DNA of 36,605 bases from a virus (IMGVR_UViG_3300029219_000015); one strand, 5' to 3'; positions 1 to 12,416 are shown, numbered from the stretch's first letter. The notes: a model not told the origin generated them from the sequence alone. Numbers and translations: made by a program.

Positions 1-90
1 GGGGGAACTGAGAGAACTAAATTTCAATTTAAACAATGAATTAACTTCTTAGCGTACGTTTTCGTTCCATTGGCCCTCAAACCCCATTTA

Positions 91-177
91 GGGGAGTTAG
101 TCCGTAGAGGTAGCGGTGTAGACTGTAAATCTACTGTCATGGCGACTCGGGTGGTTCGACTCCATCACTCCCCACCA
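91..177 (+). tRNA. tRNA-Tyr (anticodon GTA), long variable arm, CCA encoded
   Basis: Acceptor stem GGGGAGT/ACTCCCC; anticodon stem GTAGA/TCTAC with loop CTGTAAA; about 15-nt variable arm; T-loop TTCGACT; 3' A-CCA. Confidence 0.8.
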
Positions 178-181
178 AATT

Positions 182-257
182 GCCGGTTTAGCTCAGTTGG
201 TAGAGCAGTCGCTTTGTAAGCGAATGGCCAGCGGTTCAAGTCCGTTAACCGGCACCA
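182..257 (+). tRNA. tRNA-Thr (anticodon TGT), CCA encoded
   Basis: Acceptor stem GCCGGTT/AACCGGC; D-arm GCTC-AGTTGGTA-GAGC; anticodon loop TTTGTAA; T-arm AGCGG-TTCAAGT-CCGTT; 3' A-CCA. Anticodon stem has one mismatch. Confidence 0.7.
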
Positions 258-577
258 ACACAACAGGTAAGAGCATTGGGCGAATCGGCGATACTGACCC
301 ACAAGGCCGTAAATCGATAGAGTCAGACCAGTGCTCTTACCGTTGTGAGGAAGTGCAGCTCTTTGAAGCAACCAGAAGATAAGCATCTGGCTTCACAACA
401 CAACGATAATATCATTACGGTTAATCGTCGTTCATGTGCACAATGACTGGTCGAAAGGTAGTGATCTTACCGTTGTGATGAATGCACAGGCTGATGTGCC
501 GCAACTACAGTAGTGCGCGCTTTGCGGGGCTTGCTACAACCCTGTGTCGGAGTTCAGTACCGACCATCACAATAGCT

Positions 578-664
578 GGAGAGTAGGGAGCATGGTGCTC
601 AAGCGGTCTTGAAAACCGTCCCATTGTGCAAACGATGATGGTTCGATTCCATTACTCTCCGCCA
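578..664 (+). tRNA. tRNA-Ser (anticodon TGA), long variable arm, CCA encoded
   Basis: Acceptor stem GGAGAGT/ACTCTCC; anticodon stem GCGGT/ACCGT with loop CTTGAAA; long variable arm; T-loop TTCGATT; discriminator G then CCA. Confidence 0.8.
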
Positions 665-666
665 GA

Positions 667-744
667 CACAGCGTTGAGCGGTTTGGCCTTTTAATCAACT
701 CGATTAAGACTCCGCTAACATAAACCAGACCGCTCAACGCTGTG
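667..744. repeat. Perfect 16-bp inverted repeat (CACAGCGTTGAGCGGT / ACCGCTCAACGCTGTG) around a 46-nt loop that itself contains TTAATC-AACTC-GATTAA
   Basis: Read directly from sequence immediately 3' of tRNA-Ser; possible processed stable RNA or structured element. Confidence 0.6.
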
Positions 745-823
745 ATAGACAATTACGGCAGACGTTCTTAACCATATAGCTTGCTAACATCCTAGCAACA
801 CTTTTTTAAGCGCAAAATCCAAA

Positions 824-843
824 GGGGCTTCGGCCCCTTTTTT
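824..843. terminator. Rho-independent terminator, usable in both directions
   Basis: GGGGC-TTCG-GCCCC followed by TTTTTT; an A-run precedes it on the + strand; sits between the tRNA cluster and the end of the minus-strand gene 845..1753. Confidence 0.75.
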
Positions 844-844
844 G

Positions 845-1753
845 TTAATGATTGCCTAGATATGATTTTAGTTCTTCTTTAATGATTAGTGAGTATTCTA
901 AAATATCACTTAGTAAAAATTTTGCTCTGTTAAAATACCCACCAAAAGAACCTAAAATTTCAGATGGTCTTTCTAAGAGCATCACAATATCATCTTCTTG
1001 CACTTTAGTAATGTAACTTCTAACAGCTCTTTCTCCAATAACTCTTTTCTTACCGTTTATTTCAGATTCATCTAAAACCTTATTTATAAATTTTTCTGTA
1101 TCATTGAATCGTCCACTATTGTGTACTATTGTATGTCTTAGTAGTTCAATTAGCTTGATGTTAAAGCGATAGTTTTTGCCAATCTTGTTGTTTGTTTCTA
1201 TCTCTTTGAAGCCAGGTATTTTATTTCTGAAAATTTTAGTTATTTTTTTCGATGGGTTACTTTTTGCTTTTAATAATCTGTAATAAACTTCCCTTTTCCC
1301 AATTTCATCATCTTCAACCTTACCAAAATCACTTGAGGACCATAAATCATTTCGAACACATACAGTATAGACATATATTGCCTCAATATAGTCTTCCAGT
1401 AACTCATAGGCTTCAGTAATAACCCACTGATATTGTTTATTTTTCAAAGTATTACACAATCTTATCTTTTCTTCTAAATCAATGGCGCTGTTACCTATCT
1501 CTAATGTTGAACCTGTATATGGGTTTGAACATAAATGGCGAGCTAACGTTGTGCCACACTTAATCTTAATAGTTTCATTAATATTAATAATAGTATCTGG
1601 ATTCTGTGCATACTCCACTTCTTTAAGAAGACGTTTTATATTTTTCTTTGTTGTATCATTTATCTGATTTAAATAATCAAAAAGTAAAGATATTTCTTCT
1701 CTAAATTCGTTGTATTTATTTTCAATCAAAGAATCAGACAACTTACCAATCAT
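845..1753 (-). CDS. Hypothetical protein on an AT-rich island; candidate HEPN/Abi-like defence protein (R-x4-H motif RHTIVH at about residues 206-211)
   Basis: 302-aa ORF with AGAGG 5 nt before the ATG; composition visibly far more AT-rich than flanks; K/E/I/N-rich; product assignment is inference from one short motif. Confidence 0.75.
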   Translation of the reverse strand: MIGKLSDSLIENKYNEFREEISLLFDYLNQINDTTKKNIKRLLKEVEYAQNPDTIININETIKIKCGTTLARHLCSNPYTGSTLEIGNSAIDLEEKIRLCNTLKNKQYQWVITEAYELLEDYIEAIYVYTVCVRNDLWSSSDFGKVEDDEIGKREVYYRLLKAKSNPSKKITKIFRNKIPGFKEIETNNKIGKNYRFNIKLIELLRHTIVHNSGRFNDTEKFINKVLDESEINGKKRVIGERAVRSYITKVQEDDIVMLLERPSEILGSFGGYFNRAKFLLSDILEYSLIIKEELKSYLGNH

Positions 1754-2382: not shown

Positions 2383-3486
2383 ATGAAAAATAGCTTTGAC
2401 AGCGCACGCGCTGCGGAGAACACCTCAAAAGAGGCGATAGAGTATCTCGAAAGAGCATCTCAAATGCAGGCCGTTATGATCTCCCAGGTCAGCAATGACA
2501 TGAGATTCTCGGACGCATTCATGTTATTCACTCGCTTATCTCTGCTGATAACCAGACGTCGGCCAGAGATCGCTGTTCATTGTATTTTGATACATGTTTT
2601 GCCGCACATTGCCGATGTAAAAGTAAGTGACATTAATAGGTTCATGGTGAACCAACTGGTCAACCCACTAATACTGGATGGCAAAATTGTTATGGGCCGC
2701 CGCGTTTTCTCTCTGATGAAGCAGTTCCTTAGCTGGTGCGCCTTCCAGGGGATGATAGACGTGTCACCGTTAAACGATATGTCACTTAACAAAGTTGCCG
2801 GTGGCGCAAAGCCCACACCTCGCGAGCGGAAGCTGACCGACGCAGAGGTATGGGTGTTCTGGAATATATGGGACTACTTCAATGTGTGTGCTGGTACAAA
2901 ATGGGCGGCCAGGCTATGTCTTGTATCCGCAAGACGACCTGACGAAGTACTGCGGGCTAAAAAAAGTGAGTTCAATCTTAAGCGTGGGGTTTGGAATCAA
3001 GGCAAGAGGAACAAATCTGCCCGTGAGCATTCTCTGCCTTTAAGCTCATTAATGCGCACTTGTATTGAAGAGTTGTTCGAATATGGTAAAGACAGCCAGT
3101 GGCTCGTGCCTTCGAATAAAAAAATCGGGAAAGACCTTCCTATGTCTAAAGTGGCAATAGCCCAGGCATTACGTCGTATTCTGGAACGACCAGAACTGAT
3201 GGAGCTTGAGCCATTTACACCCCGAGATTTGCGCCGTACTGCGCGTAGTTACTTCCCAGCATTAGGCATAAGCCAGGAGGTATCACGTAAAATCATGAAC
3301 CACAGTCTTGAGGGGATAGATCGGGTCTACGACCGGCACGATTATATGGACGAGATGCGAGACGCCTTAGAAAGTTTCTCGACGTACATCGCATCAATCG
3401 TAGAGCAACCGGATTTAGACGAAATTGACCACAAATTTAAGGGAGATCGTCTATCAACAGAGCTTATTCGTGTAAATTTTTCATAG
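2383..3486 (+). CDS. Tyrosine recombinase/integrase-like protein, P4-integrase-type C-terminus, apparently lacking an N-terminal arm-binding domain
   Basis: C-terminal motifs ARRPDEV...HSLPLS...FTPRDLRRT...NHSLEGIDRVYDRHDY match the R/K/H-x-x-R/Y pattern of tyrosine recombinases; the box II position that I recall as His is Arg here. Start codon uncertain. Confidence 0.7.
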   Translation: MKNSFDSARAAENTSKEAIEYLERASQMQAVMISQVSNDMRFSDAFMLFTRLSLLITRRRPEIAVHCILIHVLPHIADVKVSDINRFMVNQLVNPLILDGKIVMGRRVFSLMKQFLSWCAFQGMIDVSPLNDMSLNKVAGGAKPTPRERKLTDAEVWVFWNIWDYFNVCAGTKWAARLCLVSARRPDEVLRAKKSEFNLKRGVWNQGKRNKSAREHSLPLSSLMRTCIEELFEYGKDSQWLVPSNKKIGKDLPMSKVAIAQALRRILERPELMELEPFTPRDLRRTARSYFPALGISQEVSRKIMNHSLEGIDRVYDRHDYMDEMRDALESFSTYIASIVEQPDLDEIDHKFKGDRLSTELIRVNFS

Positions 3487-3867
3487 AGACTTTATGGCCT
3501 CAACAACCTTTTGTGATGCGCCTTTCTCTTTACCGAATCGCTCGTTATATGCAGCAAGAACCTGTTTTTCGTCCTCGTTAAGAGGAGCAGTGCCTTCTTT
3601 GTATAAAAATGCTGCGAGTTCGGGTTGGCGTTCTTCCAGCACCATCATCATAAGACGACTTGGCTCAATGCCCAGTGCCAGCGCCAGCGGACGAACCTTA
3701 TCGATAGGCAAAGGAATTTTGCCGCTTTTAATTAAAGAAAGGTTGTTGGCGTTTTTATACCCAATTGTTTTGGCTATCTGGGCCTGGCTCATAGGTGAGG
3801 ATTCAATCAACCCTGCGATAAAAGCAGCGTAGCGACTTTCTATAAATTCAATCTTGTTATCAGACAT
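3481..3867 (-). CDS. Helix-turn-helix (XRE/Cro-CI-like) DNA-binding protein
   Basis: 128 aa; HTH-like segment SQAQIAKTIGYKNANNLSLIKSG; AAAGG 8 nt before the ATG; convergent with and overlapping the recombinase-like gene by 6 nt. Confidence 0.7.
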   Translation of the reverse strand: MSDNKIEFIESRYAAFIAGLIESSPMSQAQIAKTIGYKNANNLSLIKSGKIPLPIDKVRPLALALGIEPSRLMMMVLEERQPELAAFLYKEGTAPLNEDEKQVLAAYNERFGKEKGASQKVVEAIKSL

Positions 3868-11597: not shown

Positions 11598-11871
11598 TAA
11601 AGAATTATGGCGCTTGTTGAGGAAGTCACTCCTCTTACGCACTTTGTTTTGCCATGCCGGCAGTTAGCTTCTGCCTTTGACTATTCATGCGGCAACCCCG
11701 CATTTCGCCACAATGGGCAATTCACTTTTATGGAATAAACTGGCCGTTGTGTCGATTTAATTAGCATGGCCTTACCATGCTAATTTATTCAACTTGTACA
11801 ATCCTACAAATCTATCCACTCAGGCTTACACCGTCTTCGTTATTGTAGAAATGAGGATCATCAGCGTTGAA

Positions 11872-12087
11872 TCAGCTTAGAGCAACGACATTTGCTGCTG
11901 CTGGGCCTTTAGCCCCATTCTCGATAGAGAATTCGACCTGCTGGCCTTCTTCCAAAGTGCGGAAATTATTACTCTGAATTGCCGAAAAATGTACAAAAAC
12001 ATCTTTACTGCCATCAGCAGGAGAAATAAAGCCAAAGCCTTTATCAGAGTTAAACCATTTTACTAAACCAGTCATTTTATTAGACAT
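11872..12087 (-). CDS. Cold-shock protein, CspA family
   Basis: 71 aa [38 protein letters not shown]... closely matches CspA (RNP1 KGFGFI and RNP2 VFVHF motifs); AAGAAGG 8 nt before the internal ATG at 12087. The ORF-track start at 12183 is rejected. Confidence 0.85.
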
Positions 12088-12416
12088 AGATATTACCTTC
12101 TTAATTTTGTGAGCCACATAGTGCGGCGAGAATTTGATCTGTATAGATTGGGACTTACTTAGGCACTTAAGGAGGAGACTCACGAAGAAGGGAAATCAGA
12201 AGATAACACTGAACTGAGACTGCTTTACTAAAACTGCTTACATAAGGTCTGTCTTGCAAACCAACGATGCTATTAACGCATACCCCTTCTTTTCATGCAA
12301 CCTTTATTTTTCAAAGATAACTAATTTTTGTCACCATTGGTTTAGTAAACGTTAACGAACCAGACGATGCCAGACACCTTTACAGAGAACAGATGCCCGC
12401 CAATTGGCGGGCATCA

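What the first reader, a model, noticed from the sequence alone, without database searches (positions are those of the whole stretch)
262..483. Unexplained repeats and long hairpins between tRNA genes suggest small stable RNAs
Between tRNA-Thr and tRNA-Ser there is a 20/22-identical direct repeat (GTGCTCTTACCGTTGTGAGGAA at 341-362, GTGATCTTACCGTTGTGATGAA at 461-482) and a segment (about 267-283) complementary to 338-357, which could form a long stem. After tRNA-Ser lies a perfect 16-bp inverted repeat (667-744). No protein explains these. tRNA clusters in large phages often include processed non-tRNA stable RNAs.
Basis: partly seen in the sequence, partly recalled or inferred. Interest (0 to 1): 0.45.

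Follow-up and report, generated by a model that had tools for sequence, protein, structure and literature searches.

The report
Modular phage hairpin/tRNA-like RNA array
The repeats are the arms of three long RNA hairpins that alternate with tRNAs and tRNA-shaped modules in one transcript of a phage-plasmid; they belong to a widespread, unannotated family of shuffled RNA cassettes in P1, lambda-like and other enterobacterial phages whose function is still unknown.

Summary
The two repeat copies are the 3' arms of two related hairpins, HP1 (259-347) and HP2 (399-477). HP3 (667-744) is a third hairpin, with a 20-bp stem rather than 16.

These hairpins alternate with tRNA-Tyr, Thr and Ser and with two tRNA-shaped modules (342-399 and 472-573). 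All lie on the + strand, upstream of a terminator at 821-840.

The same cassettes occur in P1, where they are annotated as the antisense CDSs plp and upl. They also occur in lambdoid prophages, SSU5-like phage-plasmids, Phapecoctavirus, Nonanavirus and Sashavirus. Each cassette has a conserved scaffold and an unrelated interior.

- **Stems:** they covary, with compensatory changes at 14 of 20 positions, and carry G·U pairs on the tRNA strand.
- **HP2:** it has a conserved core, and its apical loop stays self-complementary across phages (GUGCAC, GCGCGC, GGGCCC).
- **Annotation:** no Rfam family matches, and no conserved protein is encoded.

My best reading is a co-transcribed array that is processed into small stable RNAs, comparable to T4 RNA C and D. 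Expression and function are untested. Relatives begin the array with a tmRNA-like 10-codon tag template.

The parts
58..65 (+). GTTTTCGT motif. In relatives this motif marks the 5' start of the RNA array, so it may mark the start of the transcript here.
   Evidence: The same motif lies directly downstream of a TTGACA-17-TAGATT promoter in Pantoea locus L275. It also opens the array in P1, PJ16, L013 and L001. Its role in the window is inferred. No good promoter was found upstream.
91..177 (+). tRNA-Tyr (GTA)
   Evidence: ARAGORN; Rfam tRNA model, 41.6 bits.
182..257 (+). tRNA-Thr (TGT)
   Evidence: ARAGORN; Rfam tRNA model, 69 bits.
259..347 (+). HP1, a long-stem hairpin. The 5' arm is 259-279 (CACAAC-A-GGTAAGAGCATTGG) and the 3' arm is 328-347. 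The interior, 280-327, is private to this phage-plasmid group.
   Evidence: (MFE -39.4 kcal/mol, z = -3.5). The same stem encloses about 15 unrelated interiors in at least 120 IMG/VR contigs.
331..352 (+). Direct repeat copy 1. It is the 3' arm of HP1 plus the first bases of the next module.
342..399 (+). M2, a mini tRNA-like module. Its closing stem is GTTGTGAGG (342-350) with CTTCACAAC (391-399), and it contains an internal hairpin at 372-390. Its 5' strand overlaps the base of HP1.
   Evidence: Fold. The closing stem covaries with phage PJ16 and Sasha (GTGGTG/CACCAC). Window 329-403 hits P1, P7, D6, SJ46, Sashavirus and Nonanavirus at 83-97% identity.
399..477 (+). HP2, a long-stem hairpin with a conserved core. 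The arms are 399-418 and 458-477. The core is 419-457, and the apical hairpin is 432-446 with loop GTGCACA at 436-442.
   Evidence: z = -3.1. Consensus structure of 11 variants: 8 of 22 pairs carry compensatory changes, and the internal helix is invariant. The loop hexamer is GUGCAC, GCGCGC or GGGCCC in different phages.
461..482 (+). Direct repeat copy 2. It is the 3' arm of HP2 plus the first bases of M4.
472..573 (+). M4, a tRNA-shaped module. It has a 9-bp closing stem (472-480 with 565-573), a 5' hairpin at 484-499 with loop GGCTGA, a variable middle, and a 3' T-arm-like hairpin at 546-564.
   Evidence: Folds. Scaffold alignment of 16 variants: 95% of cells paired, 4 pairs with changes on both sides, and 0 of 500 shuffles reach the observed score. 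There are 15 different middles of 38-84 nt. ARAGORN and Rfam do not call it a tRNA.
578..664 (+). tRNA-Ser (TGA)
   Evidence: ARAGORN. PGAP annotates it in relatives. The only Rfam match is tRNA-Sec at 44.8 bits, below its cut-off of 47.
667..744 (+). HP3, a long-stem hairpin with a class B stem. The arms are 667-686 and 725-744 (19 Watson-Crick pairs plus 1 G.U). The base is CACAGC/GCTGTG, a compensatory variant of CACAAC/GTTGTG.
   Evidence: (MFE -41.2 kcal/mol, z = -8.6).
821..845 (+). Intrinsic terminator that closes the tRNA and hairpin transcription unit.
   Evidence: an 8-bp G+C-rich stem followed by a T run.

Best explanation
Window 58-845 is one sense-strand, non-coding transcription unit of a phage-plasmid. 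Three tRNAs alternate in it with five structured RNA cassettes of two scaffold types.

- Type 1 (HP1, HP2, HP3) is a helix of about 20 bp, based on CACA(A/G)C...G(T/C)TGTG, that encloses a 40-60-nt interior domain.
- Type 2 (M2, M4) is tRNA-shaped. It has an acceptor-like closing stem (GUUGUGRUG/CAYCACAAY), a hairpin at the D-arm position, a hairpin at the T-arm position, and a variable middle.

Proposed mechanism:
1. The array is transcribed together with the tRNAs.
2. RNase P cuts at the 5' side of the tRNAs and the tRNA-shaped modules.
3. The two-turn helices of the hairpins are cut by RNase III or block exonucleases.
4. The transcript is thereby resolved into tRNAs plus a set of small stable RNAs whose interiors are the payload.
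5. The HP2 payload pairs with itself through a self-complementary apical loop, forming a kissing dimer.

Shown here: the anatomy, family membership, structural covariation, orientation and absence of coding. Inferred: transcription as one unit, the processing enzymes, RNA stability, dimerisation, and any trans-acting role.
For: **Anatomy.** All elements lie on the tRNA strand and end at a terminator.

**Family.**
- The HP1 stem with unrelated interiors occurs in at least 120 IMG/VR contigs, as 35 distinct hairpins with about 15 unrelated interiors.
- It is present in the P1 ban operon, lambdoid HK629 just after the late terminator, Phapecoctavirus DE16 inside its tRNA cluster, and Nonanavirus PJ16 and Sashavirus, which have no tRNAs.
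- A lambdoid version is found in 340 of 5426 complete E. coli genomes, with nothing annotated over it.

**Structure under selection.**
- Across 19 distinct stems, 14 of 20 stem positions show Watson-Crick to Watson-Crick compensatory changes. A U.G pair at stem position 17 is kept in 12 of 19.
- Of 23 stems, 22 fold better as the tRNA-sense strand than as its complement, and each has 1-4 G.U pairs.
- M4 scaffold: 95% of cells paired, 15 cells with changes on both sides, 0 of 500 shuffles reach the observed score, and pairing collapses when partners are slid by 1-3 columns.
- HP2 type: 8 of 22 pairs are compensatory around an invariant internal helix.
- The HP2 loop hexamer keeps self-complementarity through paired changes at positions 2 and 5: U/A, C/G and G/C.

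**Not coding.** Pfam finds nothing. P1 Plp resembles the window's antisense ORF over only 13 aa, where it overlaps the tRNA-Thr end and the hairpin arm.

**Not a known RNA family.** Rfam 15 has no match at gathering thresholds or at E<10.

**Precedent.** T4 rnaC folds as a closing stem, long inserts and a GGGUUCGAAUCCC T-arm next to the 3' strand. It is a real late RNA of unknown role (PMC3014915, PMC9697503).

**From general knowledge, not tested here.** A helix of about 20 bp is the accepted minimal E. coli RNase III substrate. An acceptor-stem plus T-arm minihelix is a sufficient RNase P substrate.
Against: - No expression, end-mapping or nuclease data exist for any member. My literature searches found none.
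- In P1, CRISPRi knock-down of trnT, plp and upl gave no plating defect, so the region is dispensable in the laboratory (PMC10695390).
- For the window's own hairpins, strand asymmetry is weak. Stem-only energies are HP2 -18.1 against -17.0 and HP3 -37.3 against -37.0. The full HP3 region folds better on the minus strand, -46.6 against -41.2.
- Much of the stem covariation is between paralogous stem classes, and it was counted on each sequence's own minimum-energy fold, which favours pairing.
- The basal 6 bp of each hairpin overlap the closing stems of the neighbouring tRNA-like modules, so both cannot form in full at the same time.
- The interiors have no significant complementarity to the rest of the 36.6-kb window. 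No antisense target is therefore in view.
- Three loci carry a non-palindromic loop, GUGCCC.
Confidence: 0.55

Rival explanations
1. The elements are purely cis-acting punctuation. The hairpins and tRNA-shaped modules would exist only to help the long untranslated transcript fold, resist Rho and exonucleases, and be cut correctly around the tRNAs or ahead of late genes. The interiors would be neutral filler, and no product would act in trans.
For: - The interiors are hypervariable and unrelated between phages, while the scaffolds are kept.
- The elements always lie in untranslated stretches of strongly expressed operons: the tRNA clusters, the lambdoid late leader just after the late terminator, and the region after the major capsid gene.
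- The region is dispensable in P1.
- No antisense targets were found in the window.
Against: - The HP2 interior is strongly conserved in sequence across P1-unrelated phages, with an invariant internal helix and a loop that stays self-complementary. Filler would not behave this way.
- Some interiors carry T-arm-like hairpins (P1, L010).
- In Pantoea eucrina the cassettes form a stand-alone operon with its own promoter and terminator and with no tRNA or gene to serve.
Confidence: 0.22
2. The elements are selfish or recombinational DNA. The hairpins would be MITE-like or attC-like cassettes that are spread or exchanged at the DNA level, with CACAAC and GTTGTG acting as recombination sites. The tyrosine recombinase gene at 2383-3486 lies nearby.
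For: - The ends are conserved and inverted while the centres vary, and element length is 67-121 bp.
- The outermost AAC...GTT recalls the attC R''/R' cores.
- Cassettes are swapped exactly at these boundaries between P1 and the window.
- A Phage_integrase-family gene lies 1.6 kb away.
Against: - The ends do not fit the attC consensus RYYYAAC/GTTRRRY (read directly from the sequence).
- The elements also occur in virulent phages without an integrase (PJ16, Sasha, DE16).
- G.U pairs and the energy asymmetry favour one strand, and that strand is always the transcribed one.
- Interior cores and tRNA-like scaffolds show RNA-type covariation.
- No target-site duplications were seen.
- Exchange is equally well explained by ordinary homologous recombination in the conserved flanks.
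Confidence: 0.08
3. The elements are decayed tRNA genes and chance palindromes with no present function.
For: - M4-type modules grade from versions with true D-arm and T-arm sequences (AGCTCAATGGCGAGCT, GGTTCGATTCC) to degenerate ones like the window's.
- The region is non-essential in P1.
Against: - The cassettes keep 83-97% nucleotide identity across unrelated phage families, while the neighbouring genes differ.
- Compensatory changes are seen.
- The repeat has a chance expectation of 0.00.
- HP3 has z = -8.6.
Confidence: 0.07
4. The region encodes small proteins on the minus strand, as annotated in P1 (plp, a putative lipoprotein, and upl).
For: P1 and several P1-like records annotate plp and upl over the homologous DNA. 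The window has a 73-aa antisense ORF at 165-386.
Against: - The window ORF overlaps tRNA-Thr.
- It shares only 13 aa with Plp, over the tRNA end and hairpin arm.
- Neither has a Pfam family.
- The frame is not kept where the interiors are swapped.
- RefSeq PGAP annotates no CDS there in the 100%-identical plasmid.
Confidence: 0.02

Closest known systems
T4 stable RNAs C and D (species 1 and 2 RNAs, rnaC and rnaD)
   Same: - They are non-tRNA RNAs encoded in a phage tRNA cluster on the tRNA strand.
- rnaC folds as a terminal closing stem, long inserted hairpins and a canonical T-arm next to the 3' strand. The tRNA-shaped modules have the same plan.
- Their function has been unknown for decades (PMC3014915, PMC9697503).
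   Different: - I detected no sequence similarity.
- The T4 RNAs are single genes, not shuffled cassettes.
- T4 has no 20-bp hairpin class.
- The present family also occurs away from tRNA genes.
tRNA-miRNA units (TMERs) of murine gammaherpesvirus 68, and engineered tRNA scaffolds (from my own knowledge)
   Same: A tRNA or tRNA-like body is followed directly by a hairpin of about 20 bp, so that tRNA-processing enzymes and a double-strand-specific RNase can release small RNAs. The tRNA shape is used to stabilise an inserted cargo.
   Different: The TMER example is a eukaryotic virus using RNase Z and Dicer. It is only an analogy. Nothing here shows that the hairpins yield short guide RNAs.
RNase III processing hairpins (T7 R1.1 and related sites, the stems flanking 16S and 23S rRNA, lambda sib)
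   Same: The helices are about two turns long with a bulge or wobble, placed between functional units of a polycistronic phage transcript.
   Different: - Known sites do not enclose conserved structured interiors.
- They are not a sequence family shared across phage families.
- Cleavage was not tested here.
Bacterial Y RNA-like RNAs (YrlA, Rfam RF02553)
   Same: A long terminal stem encloses a tRNA-like domain. The P1 version of HP1 contains GGGTTCGAATCCC.
   Different: The Rfam YrlA model does not match any hairpin. It aligns only to tRNA sequence, at 15-26 bits against a cut-off of 69. No Ro/Rsr gene is in view, and most interiors are not tRNA-like.
Kissing-loop dimerisation sites such as the HIV-1 DIS (from my own knowledge)
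   Same: A short stem is capped by a loop whose central six bases are self-complementary. The same hexamers, GUGCAC and GCGCGC, occur as natural alternatives.
   Different: There is no relation in origin, and dimerisation of HP2 is untested.
tmRNA (SsrA)
   Same: - Relatives start the array with a 10-codon template, AN[DE][DN]xx[LM]x[AV]A followed by a stop and with no start codon. This resembles the E. coli tag ANDENYALAA.
- Rfam tmRNA models align to the tag region (26 bits, E = 0.005) and to the T-arm and 3' end of one tRNA-like module.
   Different: - The module is absent from the window itself.
- ARAGORN finds no tmRNA.
- No G3.U70 pair and no contiguous tRNA-like domain were found.
- All scores are below the gathering thresholds.

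Membership tests
tRNA | A cloverleaf recognised by ARAGORN or the Rfam RF00005 model, with an anticodon arm and a 7-bp acceptor stem followed by NCCA. | tested here: not met
   ARAGORN calls only Tyr, Thr and Ser. Rfam at E<10 gives no tRNA hit over 258-577 or 665-750. M4 and M2 have 9-bp closing stems, no anticodon arm and no CCA.
T4-type stable RNAs of tRNA clusters (rnaC, rnaD) | Encoded within a phage tRNA cluster on the tRNA strand. | tested here: met
T4-type stable RNAs of tRNA clusters (rnaC, rnaD) | A tRNA-like 3' domain: a closing stem with a T-arm adjacent to the 3' strand. | tested here: met
   Window M4 has a T-arm-position hairpin at 546-564 next to the 3' strand at 565-573. Relatives have a true GGTTCGATTCC T-arm. 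T4 rnaC folds the same way.
T4-type stable RNAs of tRNA clusters (rnaC, rnaD) | Accumulates as a discrete stable RNA, processed from the tRNA precursor. | not testable with these tools
   No transcript data are available. This needs northern blots or small-RNA sequencing.
T4-type stable RNAs of tRNA clusters (rnaC, rnaD) | Sequence homology to T4 rnaC or rnaD. | not tested
   No direct comparison was made, so common ancestry is not claimed. The database searches do not bear on it: no T4-like record appears in the distant search, which lists 40 of its 49 records, and neither search identifies what its unlisted hits matched.
YrlA / Y RNA-like (RF02553) | A match to the covariance model: a Ro-binding stem plus a tRNA-like domain. 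| tested here: not met
   The only hits are to tRNA sequence, 15.1 bits in the window and 25.6 bits in P1, against a gathering score of 69.
RNase III processing site | A helix of about 20 bp or more, roughly two turns. | tested here: met
   HP1 has 20 pairs with a bulged A. HP2 has 18 pairs over 20 positions. HP3 has 20 pairs.
RNase III processing site | Cleavage by RNase III in vivo or in vitro. | not testable with these tools
   This requires an rnc mutant or the purified enzyme.
Integron attC site | R''/R' cores RYYYAAC and GTTRRRY, extrahelical bases, and an IntI integrase with cassette ORFs. | tested here: not met
   The ends are CACAAC/GTTGTG, which match only AAC/GTT. There are no cassette ORFs. 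The family occurs in phages without an integrase.
tmRNA | A tRNA-like domain with G3.U70 and a CCA end, together with a tag reading frame, in one or two pieces. | tested here: inconclusive
   The window has none. Relatives have a convincing tag frame. ARAGORN makes no tmRNA call, and Rfam scores are below threshold.
Protein-coding gene (P1 plp, upl) | A conserved reading frame and protein-level similarity. | tested here: not met
Self-cleaving ribozymes and other curated RNA families | A match to any Rfam 15 model. | tested here: not met
   Nothing reaches gathering thresholds. At E<10 there are only weak miRNA or snoRNA-type chance hits.

The most novel reading that the evidence does not exclude
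The hairpins and tRNA-shaped modules could be parts of a horizontally shuffled phage RNA toolkit aimed at the host's tRNA and ribosome machinery. tRNA-like scaffolds would display hypervariable inserts as decoys or guides, for example against anticodon nucleases or other tRNA-directed defences. One cassette would multimerise through a kissing loop. In many relatives the same array opens with a tmRNA-like 10-codon degradation-tag template, which would amount to a phage-encoded, split, trans-translation-like device.
Probability: 0.15. Interest if true: 0.9.

Novelty: new variant of a known kind. Interest (0 to 1): 0.6.

Why it matters
- **A blind spot in model phages.** A sizeable, structured, unannotated RNA family sits in some of the best-studied phages (P1 and lambda-like phages) and in common E. 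coli phage-plasmids and prophages. In P1 it is currently annotated as two doubtful proteins.
- **A link to an old puzzle.** It connects the 50-year-old question of T4 RNA C and D to a much wider class: tRNA-shaped scaffolds and two-turn hairpins carrying exchangeable interiors.
- **Testable handles.** The study gives predicted processing sites, a predicted RNA dimer, and a cassette structure suited to swap experiments.
- **The tag template.** If the associated tmRNA-like tag template is real, phages may tamper with ribosome rescue or protein tagging.
- **Annotation.** Genome annotators should stop calling ORFs across these elements.

Tried and rejected
- **Rfam, window.** I searched at gathering thresholds and at E<10. 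The only hits were tRNAs, cspA and sub-threshold noise.
- **Rfam, relatives.** I searched P1 and 14 related loci. Nothing covers the cassettes.
- **Ribozymes and YrlA.** I considered hammerhead, twister and pistol cores for the HP2 core by eye. They do not fit, and Rfam agrees. YrlA is rejected by its covariance model.
- **Loose pattern search.** A loose pattern for the HP2 core in IMG/VR returned almost only chance matches. A tighter pattern worked.
- **Antisense targets.** The longest complementary runs between the five interiors or loops and the rest of the window are 9-11 nt, no better than shuffles. An earlier version of that script timed out.
- **Hairpin covariance model.** I planned one for the hairpin stems but abandoned it. 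MAFFT cannot place the one-base bulge that separates stem classes, so the alignment (A4) is out of register for class B. I counted pairs per sequence instead.
- **Literature.** I searched for the stem sequences, for P1 plp and upl, for phage tRNA-like RNAs, for phage tmRNA, and for P1 transcriptomes. No description of these elements turned up. The Pas sRNA preprint concerns neighbouring but different Hfq-type sRNAs.
- **Similarities dismissed as chance.** A resemblance of window 446-464 to the 5' end of human Y1 RNA, and of AAGTGCAGCT to ToxI, were both recalled from memory. I set them aside because homologues do not keep those bases.
- **Genome collection scan.** It gave only Escherichia and Pantoea, plus four hits in unrelated MAGs. 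By my own estimate, about four chance hits are expected for that pattern.

Full report
**Origin of the window.** Window 86-900 is 100% identical to a 113-kb E. coli plasmid, pEcoFMU073332c, and 99% identical to several other plasmids of about 110 kb. The nearest phage records are Escherichia phage CMS-2020a and P1-type phages. In those relatives the order is DNA ligase, small ORFs, tRNA-Asn, Tyr, Thr, a 320-bp gap, tRNA-Ser, a variable ORF, grxA and a tyrosine recombinase. The window therefore comes from a phage-plasmid. ARAGORN finds tRNA-Tyr at 91-177, tRNA-Thr at 182-257 and tRNA-Ser at 578-664.

**Checking the observation.** The second copy is at 461-482 with two mismatches. No other copy exists in the 36.6 kb, and shuffles give none. 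Bases 259-279 pair with 328-347, giving 19 Watson-Crick pairs, one G.U and one bulged A. Bases 399-418 pair with 458-477. Bases 667-686 pair with 725-744 over 20 positions, not 16.

The direct repeat is thus the 3' arm of two related hairpins, HP1 and HP2, and HP3 is a third. All three start with CACA(A/G)C and end with G(T/C)TGTG. Folding z-scores against shuffles are -3.5, -3.1 and -8.6. A strong intrinsic terminator follows at 821-840. A scan of the whole window finds no further hairpins of this kind.

**What lies between the hairpins.**
- Bases 342-399 (M2) fold as a 9-bp closing stem, an unpaired stretch and a hairpin next to the 3' strand.
- Bases 472-573 (M4) fold as a 9-bp closing stem (GUUGUGAUG/CAUCACAAU), a 5' hairpin with loop GGCUGA, a middle part, and a 3' hairpin with loop AGUUCAGUA next to the 3' strand.

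This is the layout of a tRNA without its anticodon arm. Neither ARAGORN nor Rfam accepts these as tRNAs.

**Relatives.**
- P1 carries the same cassettes downstream of its C1-controlled ban promoters: at least four hairpins, M2 and M4. There the DNA is annotated as two antisense CDSs, plp and upl.
- Pieces of the window (329-403 and 460-499) also hit P7, D6, SJ46, Klebsiella phage-plasmids, Sashavirus, Nonanavirus, Phapecoctavirus and lambdoid phages at 77-97% identity.
- In HK629 the hairpin and an M4-type module follow the late-promoter terminator and precede the holin gene.
- In PJ16 and Sasha they fill a 700-bp gap after the capsid genes, and no tRNA is present.
- In DE16 they lie inside the tRNA cluster.
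It gave 35 distinct hairpins with about 15 unrelated interiors inside the same stem.
- One-genome-per-species bacterial genomes gave Escherichia and Pantoea, plus four hits that match my estimate of chance.
- A lambdoid version is present in 340 of 5426 complete E. coli genomes, with no feature annotated.
- In Pantoea eucrina the cassettes form a compact operon with its own TTGACA-17-TAGATT promoter and terminator.

**Evidence for selected RNA structure.**
- Among 19 distinct stems, 14 of 20 stem positions show Watson-Crick to Watson-Crick replacement. A U.G at position 17 is kept in 12 of them. The base pair CACAAC/GTTGTG becomes CACAGC/GCTGTG in HP3.
- Of 23 stems, 22 are more stable as the tRNA-sense strand than as the complement, and each has 1-4 G.U pairs.
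- The sense strand is always the strand of the tRNAs or of the surrounding late genes.
- For M4, 16 scaffold variants keep 95% of cells paired, with four pairs changed on both sides. No shuffle reaches the observed score, and sliding the partners destroys pairing. The 15 middles differ in sequence and length, 38-84 nt.
- Some M4 relatives have authentic D-arm and T-arm sequences, and a few end in NCCA.

Caveats: the stem counts use each sequence's own minimum-energy fold, and they mix paralogous classes. For the window's HP2 and HP3 the strand difference is negligible.

**HP2 in detail.** HP2 is the opposite of HP1, with a diverged stem and a conserved interior. Eleven variants from four phage groups share the following:
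- an invariant internal helix (UUGA.CG with UG.UCG.A);
- a 3-4-bp apical stem that covaries (UCAU/AUGA, CUU/AAG, CCU/AGG);
- a 7-nt loop, GNGCNCA.

The loop hexamer is GUGCAC, GCGCGC or GGGCCC. Positions 2 and 5 therefore change together so that the hexamer stays self-complementary. Three loci have the intermediate GUGCCC. A six-base palindrome cannot pair within a 7-nt loop. The simplest reading is loop-loop pairing between two copies of the RNA, but this is an inference. In lambdoid phages this core sits inside the HP1-type stem, which ties HP1 and HP2 into one family.

**Coding and known families excluded.**
- The antisense ORFs are short, overlap the tRNA genes, have no Pfam match, and share with P1 Plp only 13 residues over the tRNA end and hairpin arm.
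- PGAP annotates nothing in the 100%-identical plasmid.
- Rfam 15 has no family for any cassette.
- YrlA is rejected by its model.
- The attC consensus is not met.

**How it most likely works.** The array is best read as a co-transcribed string of tRNAs, tRNA-shaped RNAs and two-turn hairpins that is cut into small stable RNAs.
- From established knowledge, RNase P needs only an acceptor stem stacked on a T-arm. M2 and M4 offer this.
- From established knowledge, E. coli RNase III needs about 20 bp. HP1-3 offer this.
- The base of each hairpin overlaps the closing stems of its neighbours. Either the helices stack end to end or they compete, and I cannot tell which.

The nearest known objects are T4 RNA C and D. 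T4 rnaC folds into a closing stem, long inserts and a canonical T-arm at the 3' side. Both are genuine late RNAs of unknown role (PMC3014915, PMC9697503). The arrangement of a tRNA followed by a 20-bp hairpin also recalls the gammaherpesvirus tRNA-miRNA units, which I cite from my own knowledge.

Against a vital role, CRISPRi of trnT, plp and upl in P1 had no effect on plating (PMC10695390). I also found no complementarity of the interiors to the rest of the window. The pattern of conserved scaffolds, exchangeable interiors and spread across unrelated phages fits an accessory function. It could reflect an arms race, but this is speculation.

**An unexpected companion.** In at least 55 of the fetched loci, including P1, PJ16, the Pantoea operon and the window's closest relative L001, the array begins with a module holding a start-codon-less frame. 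It is always ten codons followed by a stop: ANDDLMMVAA, ANDDVVLMAA, ANEEVYLAVA, ANEERFLMAA and four more variants. This is close to the E. coli SsrA tag ANDENYALAA.
- Rfam's permuted-tmRNA model aligns to it (24-26 bits, E = 0.005).
- The tmRNA model aligns to the T-arm and 3' end of one tRNA-like module.
- ARAGORN calls no tmRNA.
- I found no G3.U70.

The window lacks this module. Its first 85 bases differ from all relatives, and the leader motif GTTTTCGT (58-65) sits directly before tRNA-Tyr. I did not follow this further.

**Verdict.** The elements belong to a widespread, undescribed, modular RNA family. It is a new variant of the known kind represented by T4 RNA C and D.

Noticed in passing
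L001 1123-1200; L003 (P1) 2484-2600; L004 (PJ16) 1671-1760; L013 921-1020; L275 3428-3520: A tmRNA-like tag-template module opens the RNA array in relatives. It has no start codon and is always 10 codons plus a stop. Eight peptide variants occur, such as ANDDLMMVAA and ANEEVYLAVA, compared with ANDENYALAA for E. coli SsrA. It is present in at least 55 fetched loci and absent from the window. Rfam tmRNA models give sub-threshold hits, and ARAGORN gives none.
   Followed up: partly
window 1-90: The first 85 bases match none of the close relatives, which carry tRNA-Asn there. The array's usual 5' leader motif, GTTTTCGT, lies at 58-65, directly before tRNA-Tyr. This suggests a deletion or replacement of the upstream cassettes in this genome.
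   Followed up: partly
window 11847-12265 (-): There is a full-length match to the cspA 5'-UTR thermoregulator (Rfam RF01766, 185.7 bits). The phage-plasmid apparently carries a cold-shock-type gene together with its RNA thermosensor.
   Followed up: no
window 578-664: tRNA-Ser (TGA) is called by ARAGORN and by PGAP in relatives, but it fails the Rfam tRNA model. It scores only 44.8 bits on the tRNA-Sec model, whose cut-off is 47. It is an unusual class II tRNA.
   Followed up: no
window 845-1753 (-): An AT-rich 302-aa ORF converges on the array's terminator and has no Pfam or PADLOC match. The 99%-identical relative L002 has a different 420-aa ORF at the same place. This looks like a variable accessory slot between the RNA array and grxA.
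   Followed up: partly
L003 (P1) 3075-3644 (-): The P1 genes plp (putative lipoprotein) and upl are annotated across hairpins and tRNA-like modules, and plp overlaps trnT. These CDS calls are probably spurious.
   Followed up: yes
L003 3683-3802; L027 2206-2415, 2691-2884 and 6553-6740 (-): Known prophage sRNAs lie next to the cassettes. P1 has an STnc100-like hit (33 bits, below threshold) right after its last hairpin. In a lambdoid prophage, two full STnc100 copies lie downstream of the array, and isrK and C4 lie upstream.
   Followed up: no
L275 3768-3832; also L042, L079 and L087 downstream of their modules: A second conserved long hairpin has a different stem (CTTAATATCCAGC...GCTGGATATTAAG, 13 bp). 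It encloses ATTATCGCAATCATATGTAGGGGTATGTATGGGTTACGG and follows the tRNA-like module in several prophages.
   Followed up: no
window 280-327: The private interior of HP1 contains the six-base palindrome ATCGAT in its predicted apical loop (313-318), and AATCGGCGAT on the 5' side. It may be another self-pairing loop, but too few variants exist to test this.
   Followed up: no
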